From the NCBI RefSeq assembly GCF_024298765.1, contig NZ_CP101210.1: DNA of 64,000 bases; one strand, written 5' to 3'. Numbering within the stretch: position 1 is the stretch's first letter; each line of letters begins with the position of its first letter. Origin of the DNA: Escherichia coli (GTDB lineage: Bacteria; Pseudomonadota; Gammaproteobacteria; Enterobacterales; Enterobacteriaceae). A program made the position numbers. Of the stretch, positions 6,529 to 9,500 are shown piece after piece.

Positions 6529-9500
6529 ATCACCGACCAAATTCGAAAAGCCTGCTCAGCGAGCAGGCTTTTTTGCATTTGTTGACCCGTCCTGAATAGC
6601 GTTGACACGTTCCTGACTTAAATCCGGAGAACGTGATGATGACTGAGTTCAAACGCACCCAACGTGATTATCCTCTATCCTTTAAAATAGCTGTTGTTGA
6701 GCAGGTTGAAAAAGGCGAGATGACCTATAAACAGGCCCAGCAGCGGTATGGCATTCAGGGGCGCTCCACCGTTCTTGTCTGGTTACGTAAATATGGCCGG
6801 CTTGACTGGAGTCCTGGACTTCCTGACCTGGTGAAGAGGAAACTGCCTGTGACTCAGACAACTATCCCGCTCACACCCGAGCAAAGAATCAGGGAACTTG
6901 AAGCGCAGCTTGAGCTGGCGAACCAGAAAGCTGAGTTTTTTGAGTCAGTTATCAATGTCCTTAAAAATGATTACGGGGTGAGTATCGTAAAAAAGCGGCC
7001 CGGCAAGTCCTCGCGCAAAGTCCGGCCCCCAAAATAACTGTGACGCGTGCATGTCTGTTCCTGGGACACAGCAGACAGGCATGGTATCAGGACAACACAA
7101 GGCGCAGAAAACGGCAGGAACATCATGCTCAGGTTCTTGATTTTGTTGCCCGTGTCAGATGTCGTCAGCCCCGAATCGGTGCGCGTAAGCTGCACTATCT
7201 GCTGAACACTCAGGCCGATAAAAGGCTGAATATCGGGCGAGACCGCCTGTTTAACCTGCTCGATGAATACCGACTCCTGGTGCCAGTAAAACGGGCATAT
7301 CACAAAACTACCAACAGTCATCATCGCTTCTACCGACATCCAAACCTGCTTAAACCAGGCCCTGAACAGGTTACCGCTCTTGAACCAGAACAGGTCTGGG
7401 TCGCCGATATTACTTACCTTCCACTGCGCAATGGTACGGCCTATCTGAGTCTGGTCACCGATGCCTGCTCCAGAAAAATTATGGGCTACCATGTTGGGGA
7501 AAACCTGCAGACAGAAAATGTGGTAAAAGCGTTCAGACAGGCGCTGAGGCTGAGAAAAACGACGAGTCCCCTGGTGCATCATTCTGACAGGGGGCTGCAA
7601 TACTGTTCAGCGCTCTATCAGTCAGTTCATGAAAGAAATGGAATAACCTGTTCAATGACGGATGGTTATGACTGCTACCAGAACGCACTGGCTGAGCGAA
7701 TAAACGGTATCCTGAAAAATGAGTTTTTACTCTCGCGTCCTGCAGACCTGGCGCAGGCCCGGGAAATGGTCAAAGAGTCCGTGGCAATTTATAACCATGA
7801 GCGGCCACATCTGGCTCTGAAATACAAAACACCCGATGACGTTCATCAGGCGTTTTACAGACAGAAAAGTGTCAACGTATATCAGGACTAGTCATGTAGC
7901 CTATGAGGATGAGAACCTCCGGGGGCAGGGAGGTTCGACTCGAGCGAAGCGAGAGAACGTTGCGCCAGCAACGGCCCGCAGGGCGAGCCACGAAGTGGCG
8001 AGTAATCCTCTATCACCGACCAAATTCGAAAAGCCTGCTCAACGAGCAGGCTTTTTTGCATCTGTAGCCCATGAGGATGAGAACCTCCGGGGGCGGGGAG
8101 GTTCGACTCGACGTAGGCCTGATAAGACGCGCCAGCGTCGCATCAGGCAAATGTACCGGCCCATTGTCGGATTCGGCGCGACCGCCTTATCCGATCTACA
8201 CACCACACATTTCCCTGCCAAATTTGCGCCCCATATCTCACTATCCATTAACGGATTTGTGACAGAAACCATTGTCTTTTTTTATATTTGCTTAAATCTT
8301 TTTTTGCGTTACTTATGGCTGGCGCTGGCATTTTCCGCTGTGCGTTTTAGCGTTCATGGTATTAATCGCTCAGATATCCACCTTTACCTCAGATTTTTTT
8401 CATTAAATGCATAAAACTTAATCACCAAATGTTGCTAAATATTAAGCTGATTGTTCTGGTTGTGTTGGCGTAGCACAAATTTCTCTGCTGCAAATAGCTG
8501 TTTGAAGTTTTTTTAATCTTTGTTTGTGGATTCTCACCGTTGGTGTAAATCCCGGTTGGCTGTATTGACGTTTTCACATTCTGTTGACAGATTGTAGGTC
8601 ACGAGGGGCATTTTATGGAGGATCCGCACTGTTACACTGATGTTAATTAGTACGGCATCCCCACCTCATAACGTTGACCCGACCGGGCAAAAAACAAAAA
8701 AGGTCAGGCAGCGACAACCCACTGCAAAGGGTTAAAACAACAAACATCACAATTGGAGCAGAATAATGCGTATTTCCTTGAAAAAGTCAGGGATGCTGAA
8801 GCTTGGTCTCAGCCTGGTGGCTATGACCGTCGCAGCAAGTGTTCAGGCTAAAACTCTGGTTTATTGCTCAGAAGGATCTCCGGAAGGGTTTAACCCGCAG
8901 CTGTTTACCTCCGGCACCACCTATGACGCCTCTTCCGTACCGCTTTATAACCGTCTGGTTGAATTTAAAATCGGCACCACTGAAGTGATCCCGGGCCTCG
9001 CTGAAAAGTGGGAAGTCAGCGAAGACGGTAAAACCTATACCTTCCATCTGCGTAAAGGTGTGAAGTGGCACGACAATAAAGAATTCAAACCGACGCGCGA
9101 ACTGAATGCCGATGACGTAGTGTTCTCGTTCGATCGTCAGAAAAACGCGCAAAACCCGTACCATAAAGTTTCTGGCGGTAGCTACGAATACTTTGAAGGC
9201 ATGGGCTTGCCGGAGCTGATCAGCGAAGTGAAAAAGGTGGACGACAACACCGTTCAGTTTGTGCTGACTCGACCGGAAGCGCCGTTCCTCGCTGACCTGG
9301 CAATGGACTTCGCCTCTATTCTGTCAAAAGAATATGCTGACGCGATGATGAAAGCCGGTACACCGGAAAAACTGGACCTCAACCCAATCGGCACCGGTCC
9401 GTTCCAGTTACAGCAGTACCAAAAAGATTCCCGTATCCGCTACAAAGCGTTTGATGGCTACTGGGGCACCAAACCGCAGATCGATACGCTGGTTTTCTCT

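What the first reader, a model, noticed from the sequence alone, without database searches (positions are those of the whole stretch)
8062..8110. Repeated 49-bp hairpin element (GAACCTCC-N8-GGAGGTTC) in the proK-dppA spacer
Seen in sequence: TGTAGCCYATGAGGATGAGAACCTCCGGGGGCRGGGAGGTTCGACTCGA occurs at 7895..7943 and 8062..8110 and contains a perfect 8-bp inverted repeat with an 8-nt G-rich loop. It is distinct from the REP units that follow at 8116 onward. Inference: it could be a tRNA-derived relic (see the nested tRNA fragment finding), a protein-binding site, or part of a small structured RNA in the long dppA upstream region.
Basis: seen in the sequence. Interest (0 to 1): 0.3.

Follow-up and report, generated by a model that had tools for sequence, protein, structure and literature searches.

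The report
Piece of known tRNA-linked repeat (RtT)
The repeated 49-base hairpin is the front third of a long-known repeat unit (the RtT RNA, one of the "tRNA-linked repeats") that sits behind the proline tRNA gene proK in E. coli. The copy at the reported coordinates is a truncated leftover unit, so the finding is ordinary.

Summary
Each copy contains a perfect 8-bp stem.

It is not a new element. It is the 5' module of the proK tRNA-linked repeat, which EcoGene calls rpK and Rfam calls RtT (RF00391).
- Rfam scores 7889-8022 at 100.4 bits against a threshold of 45, and RefSeq annotates "RtT sRNA" at this exact spot.
- The true repeat is a 168-bp tandem unit made of the proK 3' end plus terminator, the 49-mer, and a 65-nt GC-rich insert.
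- E. coli strains carry 0, 1 or 2 full units. All five alleles examined end in the orphan 49-mer, which abuts a REP element.

The 49-mer derives from the tRNA. Its first half is an inverted copy of the proK T-arm. Its second half is a direct copy of the T-stem 5' strand.

Across 124 units from about 100 species, found behind Tyr, Pro, Lys and Arg tRNA genes, these arms change in step with the neighbouring tRNA.

The function of the family remains unknown in the literature I could read.

Verdict: already known, low interest.

The parts
6463..6539 (+). proK, tRNA-Pro(CGG). Its T-arm (GGAGGTTC at 6512-6519) and last 19 nt (6521-6539) are the sequences copied into the repeat.
   Evidence: ARAGORN; Rfam tRNA hit
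6545..6573 (+). Intrinsic terminator T1 of proK, part of repeat unit 1
   Evidence: Terminator scan; 12-bp inverted repeat seen in its duplicate
6583..7894 (+). IS3-family insertion sequence, 1312 bp. It has a TGT target duplication (6580-6582 and 7895-7897) and terminal inverted repeats matching at 20 of 26 positions. It splits repeat unit 1 between the terminator and the 49-mer. It is not part of the element.
   Evidence: ORFs; NCBIfam transpos_IS3 at 260 bits; absent from K-12 and other alleles
7895..7943 (+). 49-mer copy 1, the 5' module of the complete RtT/rpK unit. 7901-7920 is the inverted copy of the proK T-arm. The hairpin arms are 7913-7920 and 7929-7936. 7929-7938 is a direct copy of the T-stem 5' strand plus TTCGA.
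7889..8022 (+). Complete RtT RNA unit (Rfam RF00391). RefSeq annotates it as 'RtT sRNA' in the 100%-identical strain 104 and in a PGAP-annotated K-12.
   Evidence: 100.4 bits, gathering threshold 45, E 3e-19
7939..8003 (+). Conserved GC-rich insert that splits the T-loop copy. It holds four short hairpins (P3-P6), including CGTTGC/GCAACG and GCCAC-GAA-GTGGC.
   Evidence: Fold; covariation in P4 and P6
8004..8022 (+). 19-nt copy of the proK 3' end (AATCCTCTATCACCGACCA), the defining mark of a tRNA-linked repeat
   Evidence: Identical to 6521-6539
8028..8056 (+). Terminator T2, a duplicate of T1 with 1 mismatch in the loop
   Evidence: Inverted repeat 8029-8040/8044-8055; fold
8063..8111 (+). 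49-mer copy 2, the copy at the finding's coordinates. It is an orphan 5' module, the start of a further unit cut off after ...TTCGACTCGA where the REP begins. The hairpin arms are 8081-8088 and 8097-8104.
8116..8196 (-). REP/BIME element that abuts and bounds the repeat array. It is not part of the element.
   Evidence: Rfam naRNA4 at 68.5 bits

Best explanation
The 49-mer is the 5' module of the proK-linked member (rpK) of the tRNA-linked repeats, which is the RtT RNA family.

Shown:
- The proK 3' flank is a tandem array of a 168-bp unit made of [last 19 nt of proK + terminator], [49-mer] and [65-nt GC-rich insert].
- This window has one full unit, interrupted by an IS3-family element, plus a terminal partial unit that ends with the second 49-mer against a REP.
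- The 49-mer is built from proK's own T-arm. It holds an inverted copy (GGAT-GA-GAACCTCC versus the reverse complement GGAT-TC-GAACCTCC), a short loop, and then a direct copy of GGAGGTTCGA.
- In a full unit the predicted RNA fold is a multi-helix junction. The left part of the 49-mer pairs with the T-stem 3' strand at the unit's 3' end (helix P1). The insert forms four small hairpins. The 3' tail is identical to mature tRNA-Pro.

Inferred:
- The unit is transcribed by read-through of the proK terminator.
- It is released by the tRNA 3'-end processing machinery, because it carries the tRNA's 3' end. This is what has been reported for rtT of tyrT and for the 5S-linked repeats.
- Copy number changes by unequal recombination between the 108-bp repeats.
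- The copy at 8063-8111 is a truncated, probably functionless remnant that can still form a hairpin.

The cellular role of the family is unknown.
For: - Rfam RtT match 7889-8022, 100.4 bits against a threshold of 45.
- RefSeq annotates 'RtT sRNA' at this spot in the identical strain and in K-12.
- Alleles with 0, 1 and 2 full units differ by exactly 168 bp, and each ends in terminator plus orphan 49-mer plus REP.
- About 2680 of 5426 complete E. coli genomes hold a full unit.
- With the IS removed, the repeat is 108 bp with 4 mismatches at period 168.
- An insert-only pattern found 156 units in 120 loci. Where an upstream tRNA lay within the fetched DNA, the first unit began 59-97 nt after it in nearly all cases (one at 238 nt). 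The tRNAs were Tyr, Pro(CGG), Pro(TGG), Lys or Arg.
- The arms change with the tRNA. They are Pro GAACCTCC/GGAGGTTC, Tyr GAACCTTC/AAGGTTC and Lys GAACCTGC/GCAGGTTC. The 5' modules match the reverse complement of their own T-arm best.
- On 124 distinct units the structure is 84% paired, with covariation score 0.181 against 0.091 in shuffles (0 of 500 reach it). P2 is 86.9% paired, and pair 22-33 reads CG 57, UA 44, GC 6.
- The minimum-free-energy fold of 7895-8022 gives this topology: -50.9 kcal/mol, z -2.66.
- Literature (PMC8144298): 22 tRNA-linked repeats at ten K-12 loci, each with 18-19 nt identical to the upstream tRNA or rRNA 3' end. A strain deletion named rpK covers exactly 168 bp next to proK. 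The 5S-linked members are expressed by terminator read-through.
Against: - No transcript data were available here for the proK unit. A strong terminator lies between proK and the unit, and in this window 1.3 kb of IS as well.
- The covariation in P1 and P2 reflects only about five switches of tRNA type. It supports an alternative topology equally well: a 5' T-arm-like hairpin plus a re-formed split T-stem. This is because the four segments are mutually complementary.
- RNAalifold did not recover P1/P2, and Rfam's own consensus structure does not contain P2.
- In Tyr-type units the stem often has a central mismatch (GAAGCTTC).
- The only functional claim for rtT, a role in the stringent response, was retracted, according to PMC8144298.
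Confidence: 0.85

Rival explanations
1. The whole repeat, 49-mer included, is neutral DNA. On this view it is a self-perpetuating tandem duplication of the tRNA 3' flank, kept similar to the tRNA by gene conversion, with no selected RNA function.
For: - Copy number is freely polymorphic, with 0, 1 or 2 units, and about half of E. coli genomes have no full unit.
- A strain listed with all 22 tRNA-linked repeats deleted was constructed.
- Array ends are ragged and differ between genera.
- No function is known.
Against: - The insert hairpins P4 and P6 show many compensatory changes within tRNA types, for example pair 95-106 GC 44, CG 29, UA 11. Gene conversion from the tRNA cannot explain this, because the tRNA has no such sequence.
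- The family persists across Enterobacterales, Orbales and Oceanospirillales.
- R-scape/CaCoFold work reports significant covariation for RtT.
Confidence: 0.12
2. The orphan copy at 8063-8111 works on its own. It would be an RNA hairpin that protects or terminates read-through transcripts, or a protein or DNA-structure site that influences dppA.
For: - It forms a stable 8-bp GC-rich hairpin just after terminator T2.
- It is retained in every E. coli allele examined, including the 0-unit allele.
Against: - No T-run follows the stem, so it is not a terminator.
- Its stability is ordinary for its composition, z -0.9.
- It lies about 650 bp upstream of the dppA start codon.
- One strain carries a stem-breaking substitution, GAACCCCC.
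- In other genera the last unit is truncated at different points or is absent.
Confidence: 0.05
3. The duplicated tRNA 3' end and flanking pieces are a scar (attL/attR-type duplication) left by an integrative element that targeted the proK T-loop.
For: - The duplication starts in the T-loop and runs to the CCA, as at tRNA integration sites (established knowledge).
- An IS lies within the array.
Against: - There is no integrase or cargo. Only 168 bp separate the copies in IS-free alleles.
- The IS is a later, simple insertion with its own 3-bp target duplication.
- The same conserved insert and inverted T-arm module recur behind five other tRNA types in about 100 species.
Confidence: 0.03
4. 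The unit encodes a small arginine-rich peptide like Tpr of the tyrT repeats, and the 49-mer holds its start codon.
For: - The ATG of the conserved GGATGAGAAC motif is the annotated start of tpr (b1229) in the tyrT unit.
- ORFs start in the ATGAGGATGAG stretch of both proK copies, at 7903-8067 and 8071-8262.
Against: - The family alignment has many indels that are not multiples of three.
- Conservation follows base pairing, not codons.
- The orphan's ORF runs into unrelated REP sequence.
Confidence: 0.02

Closest known systems
RtT RNA (Rfam RF00391) / rttR (b4425) of the E. coli tyrT-tyrV operon
   Same: - The architecture and the conserved insert are the same.
- It has an inverted T-arm module (GGGGAAGGATGAGAAC/GCTTC), a direct T-stem 5' strand plus TTCGA, a GC-rich insert, and then the last 19 nt of the tRNA.
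- It is tandemly repeated.
   Different: - The cognate tRNA is Tyr, not Pro.
- The period is 178 bp rather than 168 bp.
- The tyrT units carry no intrinsic terminator, while each proK unit does.
- The tyrT array ends after the tRNA-like 3' end, whereas the proK array ends with an orphan 5' module.
- The hairpin usually has a central mismatch in tyrT units.
tRNA-linked repeats (TLRs; Egan & Landy 1978, Rudd 1999), specifically rpK at proK
   Same: This is that element. The 19 nt at its 3' end are identical to the proK 3' end, and it lies immediately downstream of proK. The published rpK deletion is exactly 168 bp next to proK.
   Different: Nothing essential. This window adds an IS3-family insertion inside the first unit.
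RrA/RrB/RrF, the TLRs downstream of 5S rRNA (PMC8144298)
   Same: [quoted passage not shown]
- Their 3' end repeats 18 nt of the upstream mature RNA, which is proposed to direct RNase E processing.
   Different: - Their sequence is unrelated.
- They bind Hfq and CsrA through GGA motifs.
- The tRNA-operon TLRs scored below 0.01 in that paper's CsrA-binding predictor.
3'ETS-leuZ, a tRNA-transcript-derived sRNA sponge
   Same: It is a functional RNA cut out of a tRNA operon's 3' trailer (cited).
   Different: It carries no copy of the tRNA 3' end, no T-arm antisense module and no tandem repetition. It acts by pairing with RyhB and RybB (from memory).
REP/BIME elements
   Same: They are GC-rich, imperfectly palindromic intergenic repeats, and one directly abuts the orphan copy.
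   Different: - The consensus differs.
- REPs are dispersed genome-wide and are not tied to a cognate tRNA.
- The Rfam naRNA4/REP match starts only at 8116.

Membership tests
RtT RNA (Rfam RF00391) | Covariance-model score at or above the gathering threshold (45 bits) | tested here: met
   Copy 1 lies inside the match 7889-8022, which scores 100.4 bits over model positions 1-130 of 130.
RtT RNA (Rfam RF00391) | The same test applied to the copy at the finding's coordinates (8063-8111) | tested here: not met
   No RtT match in 8020-8220 even at E<=10. This copy holds only about the first third of a unit.
tRNA-linked repeat (TLR, Rudd 1999) | [quoted passage not shown] | tested here: met
   8004-8022 equals 6521-6539 at 19 of 19 positions. 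Across 100 units the mean identity over these 19 nt ranges from 14.3 (Arg-CCG, 3 units) to 18.0 by tRNA type.
tRNA-linked repeat (TLR, Rudd 1999) | Located directly downstream of the tRNA gene, on the same strand and in the same operon, often tandemly repeated | tested here: met
   The unit starts 35 nt after proK in IS-free alleles. Period is 168 bp with 0-2 full copies. Family-wide, the insert starts 59-97 nt after the tRNA in nearly all first units.
tRNA-linked repeat (TLR, Rudd 1999) | Listed as a TLR locus of E. coli K-12 (rpK) | tested here: met
   The supplement of PMC8144298 lists the deletion rpK as 3706471-3706638, which is 168 bp. That these older-version coordinates adjoin proK rests on a coordinate offset recalled from memory.
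tRNA-linked repeat / RtT | Transcribed with the tRNA and released by processing | not testable with these tools
   No expression data could be run. The literature reports this for rtT of tyrT and for RrA/B/F.
tRNA gene or pseudogene | Cloverleaf detectable by a tRNA finder | tested here: not met
   ARAGORN finds only proK in the window. The element has T-arm and acceptor 3'-strand pieces only.
REP/BIME | Match to the REP consensus or REP-derived RNA model | tested here: not met
   The naRNA4 (REP) match covers 8116-8196 only.
Intrinsic terminator | GC-rich stem followed by a T-run | tested here: not met
   The stem 8081-8104 is followed by GACTCGACGTAGG. The scan reports only the proK terminator.
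Integration-site (att) duplication of a tRNA 3' end | An integrase-bearing element between the two copies | tested here: not met
   Only 168 bp separate the copies in IS-free alleles. The IS present here is a transposase element with its own target duplication.

The most novel reading that the evidence does not exclude
The 5' module of RtT-type tRNA-linked repeats is a maintained antisense copy of the cognate tRNA's T-arm. It re-tunes every time the element sits behind a different tRNA (Tyr, Pro, Lys, Arg). The two-base loop change TC>GA is shared by most units behind Tyr, Pro and Lys tRNA genes.

This could mean that the RNA's function depends on the complementarity. It might act as an isoacceptor-specific mimic or decoy of the acceptor/T-arm minihelix for tRNA-processing or tRNA-targeting enzymes. 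It might instead act as a trans-acting antisense to the T-arm of its own (pre-)tRNA.

I did not find this anatomy described in the papers I could search. The primary papers (Egan & Landy 1978; Bosl & Kersten 1991; Rudd 1999) were not readable here.
Probability: 0.1. Interest if true: 0.55.

Novelty: already known. Interest (0 to 1): 0.15.

Why it matters
For this window it matters little. The feature is an annotated member of a family described in 1978, and the copy at the reported coordinates is a truncated leftover.

Three things have some value.
- It explains the odd anatomy of the proK-dppA spacer: an IS inside a copy-number-variable 168-bp array.
- It shows that the terminal partial units are missed by Rfam-based annotation.
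- It documents across about 100 species that the repeat's arms track the neighbouring tRNA. That is a concrete handle on a family whose function is still unknown.

Tried and rejected
It gave the split T-stem plus an implausible local helix. I therefore counted pairs on named structures. Two topologies turned out to be equally supported, because the four T-arm-derived segments are mutually complementary. Only the outer P1 pairs favour the junction topology.
- The Rfam E-value scan of the orphan copy gave no RtT hit.
- The terminator scan flagged T1 but not its near-identical duplicate T2.
- Bosl & Kersten 1991 (PMC329039) is not held. A search for 'RttR' returned mostly unrelated papers. Version 3 of the CoCoNuT preprint no longer mentions rtT.
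- Fixed-register comparison of 5' modules with the reverse-complemented T-arm needed a one-base correction. It still understates the Arg(CCG) type, which has a one-base-shorter loop. Arg(ACG) units have a diverged 5' module.
- Rejected readings: tRNA pseudogene, REP, terminator, att-site scar, and Tpr-like coding sequence (non-3n indels).
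Full report
**Observation.** The 49-mer is real and occurs exactly twice in the window, at 7895-7943 and 8063-8111. The copies differ at two positions, both outside the stem, and none of 100 shuffles gave a match. Each copy contains the perfect 8-bp inverted repeat GAACCTCC / GGAGGTTC around an 8-nt G-rich loop (7913-7920/7929-7936 and 8081-8088/8097-8104). This is the stem of the minimum-free-energy fold at -17.6 kcal/mol, although that stability is ordinary for the composition (z -0.9 and -1.7).

**Surroundings.**
- eptB ends at 6371.
- proK, tRNA-Pro(CGG), is at 6463-6539, with its terminator at 6545-6573.
- An IS3-family element occupies 6583-7894. It has orfA and orfB, a transpos_IS3 match of 260 bits, terminal inverted repeats matching at 20 of 26 positions, and a TGT target duplication at 6580-6582 and 7895-7897.
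- Then come the first 49-mer, a 65-nt GC-rich segment, a 19-nt copy of the proK 3' end (8004-8022), a copy of the terminator, and the second 49-mer.
- A REP/BIME follows at 8116-8196, and dppA starts at 8766.

Removing the IS and one copy of its target duplication gives a direct repeat of 108 bp with 4 mismatches at a period of 168 bp.

**Identity.** Rfam's RtT model (RF00391) matches 7889-8022 end to end at 100.4 bits, against a gathering score of 45. RefSeq annotates "RtT sRNA" at this position in strain 104, which is 100% identical to the window including the IS. It does the same in a PGAP-annotated K-12 MG1655 that lacks the IS. The curated K-12 record NC_000913.3 annotates nothing there.

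The literature calls these elements tRNA-linked repeats (TLRs). They were first described in 1978 in tyrT as a 178-bp unit repeated 3.14 times. Rudd catalogued 22 of them at ten K-12 loci. Each has 18-19 nt at its 3' end identical to the 3' end of the upstream tRNA or rRNA (PMC8144298). That paper's strain table lists a deletion named rpK at 3706471-3706638, which is exactly 168 bp. Those are older K-12 coordinates. By my reckoning from memory of the version offset, they lie directly next to proK.

**Population variation.** Alleles of the proK-dppA spacer differ by whole 168-bp units:
- none in strain J6 (L003);
- one in K-12 and, with the IS added, in this window;
- two in strain UTAK-13 (L004) and RIVM_C037794 (L005).

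The first four of these alleles end with terminator plus orphan 49-mer abutting the REP. The fifth, L005, has a different distal end: its second unit ends in a diverged tRNA-like 3' end (CCTCTGGCACCGACCA) and no orphan 49-mer was seen in the stretch examined. About 2680 of 5426 complete E. coli genomes hold a place covering at least 80% of a full unit. Seventy-one share the IS insertion.

**Anatomy of the 49-mer.** It is built from proK's own T-arm.
- Its 3' half (GGGGGCRGGGAGGTTCGA) parallels proK's variable loop, T-stem 5' strand and first T-loop bases (GGGGTCGGAGGTTCGA).
- Its 5' half (GAGGATGAGAACCTCC) is the reverse complement of the T-arm (GAGGATTCGAACCTCC) with a TC>GA change in the loop.
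- After the 49-mer, the 65-nt insert interrupts the T-loop copy, which resumes with AATCCTCTATCACCGACCA.

The tyrT units of K-12 follow the same plan using tRNA-Tyr sequences.

**Family-wide test.** I scanned one genome per species with a pattern taken only from the insert. Most are from Enterobacterales, with some from Gilliamella, Marinobacterium and Amphritea. A few hits from unrelated MAGs (Planctomycetaceae, an alphaproteobacterium, Microthrixaceae) had no tRNA nearby and may be chance matches.

Where an upstream tRNA lay within the fetched DNA, the insert of the first unit began 59-97 nt after it in nearly all cases (one began at 238 nt). The tRNAs were Tyr(GTA), Pro(CGG), Pro(TGG), Lys(TTT), Arg(CCG) or Arg(ACG).

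The arms change with the tRNA:

| tRNA type | Hairpin arms (P2) | Closing helix (P1) |
|---|---|---|
| Pro | GAACCTCC / GGAGGTTC | AGAGG / CCTCT |
| Tyr | GAACCTTC (often GAAGCTTC) / AAGGTTC | GGGAAGG / CCTTCCC |
| Lys | GAACCTGC / GCAGGTTC | GTGCAGG / CCTGCAC |
| Arg(CCG) | GAACCCCC / GGGGTTC | CTGGAGGG / CCCTCCAG |

5' modules match the reverse complement of their own T-arm better than those of other types. Tyr scores 15.6 of 20 against at most 12.4, and Lys 15.9 against at most 13.6.

**Structure counts.**
- Overall it is 84.2% paired, with covariation score 0.181 against 0.091 in shuffles (0 of 500 reach it) and at most 0.116 when partners are slid.
- P2 is 86.9% paired. Pair 22-33 reads CG 57, UA 44, GC 6, UG 3. 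Pair 21-34 reads UA 105, CG 5.
- P6 and P4 show compensatory changes within tRNA types, which points to selection on an RNA structure.
- This agrees with published R-scape/CaCoFold work, which notes a tandem GA motif in RtT.
- The minimum-free-energy fold of 7895-8022 gives the same topology, with a single-stranded tRNA-like 3' tail: -50.9 kcal/mol, z -2.66.

**Caveats.**
- The P1 and P2 covariation rests on about five switches of tRNA type.
- The four T-arm-derived segments are mutually complementary, so an alternative topology is supported equally well: a 5' T-arm-like hairpin plus a re-formed split T-stem. Only the outer P1 pairs (7-120 GC 54, AU 46, and neighbours) favour the junction.
- RNAalifold did not recover P1/P2, and Rfam's consensus lacks P2.
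- No expression data could be examined for the proK unit.

**The copy at the reported coordinates.**
- It contains only the 5' module, stops after ...TTCGACTCGA where the REP begins, and gives no RtT match even at E<=10.
- In other genera the last unit is truncated at different points, often against a REP, or no partial unit is present.
- One E. coli strain carries a stem-breaking substitution in it.
- It has no T-run, so it is not a terminator.

The best reading is a truncated terminal unit with no function of its own. It also supplies homology for unequal recombination that changes unit number.

**How it most likely works.** The following steps are inferred. The full unit is transcribed by read-through of the proK terminator, as shown for the 5S-linked TLRs that lie between two terminators. 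It folds into the junction and is trimmed at its tRNA-identical 3' end by the tRNA 3'-processing enzymes. What the RNA then does is unknown. [quoted passage not shown]

**Novelty and verdict.** This is already known. It is a named (rpK) and annotated (RtT sRNA) member of a family described in 1978. The point that may be new is that the 5' module is a type-specific inverted copy of the T-arm. I could not find it in the searchable literature, and I could not read the primary papers. Interest is low.

Noticed in passing
window 6583-7894 (target duplication at 6580-6582 and 7895-7897): A 1312-bp IS3-family element with a programmed-frameshift orfA/orfB is inserted between the proK terminator and the RtT unit. 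The same insertion is present in 71 complete E. coli genomes.
   Followed up: partly
L128 (NZ_OZ501598.1) about 413-1845; hits H18 and H25: Other strains carry different IS elements in the same spacer. An IS3-family element sits inside the loop of the REP right after the orphan 49-mer, which resembles IS1397 behaviour (from memory). IS621 sits in the REP region in others. The spacer is a recurrent IS landing site.
   Followed up: partly
L128 340-389: The orphan 49-mer of strain NRZ94505 has three substitutions, including one that breaks the stem (GAACCCCC), with no compensating change.
   Followed up: no
window 7903-8067 and 8071-8262 (+); L006 1588-1677 (-): The ATG inside the conserved GGATGAGAAC motif is the annotated start of the 'protamine-like' tpr gene in the tyrT unit. 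The proK copies have ORFs starting in the same ATGAGGATGAG stretch. Non-3n indels across the family argue that these ORFs, and perhaps tpr itself, are not coding.
   Followed up: partly
alignment A1 columns 91-110 (window about 7980-7998): The last insert hairpin is flanked by G.A/A.G mismatches between Watson-Crick pairs (CGAG...CGAG). This fits the tandem GA motif reported for RtT RNA by the CaCoFold paper.
   Followed up: no
NC_000913.3 3707300-3709100 (L007): The curated K-12 reference record annotates nothing between proK and dppA, whereas PGAP-annotated K-12 assemblies carry 'RtT sRNA' there. Neither annotates the orphan partial unit.
   Followed up: yes
window 16270-17784 (-), 52928-53041 (-), 58821-58892 (-), 10432-10474 (-): Other Rfam gathering-level hits in the window are four tandem rdlD antitoxin RNAs (the ldr/rdl repeats), GadY, ES205 and ES036.
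   Followed up: no
L034 (Pluralibacter gergoviae) 34-323; L038 (Erwinia persicina) 44-157: A few units have 5'-module loops closer to the exact reverse complement of the T-loop (GGAGTCGAACC, GGAATTGAACC, GGGGTTCGAACC) instead of GGATGAGAACC. This hints at occasional re-copying or conversion from the tRNA in inverted orientation.
   Followed up: no
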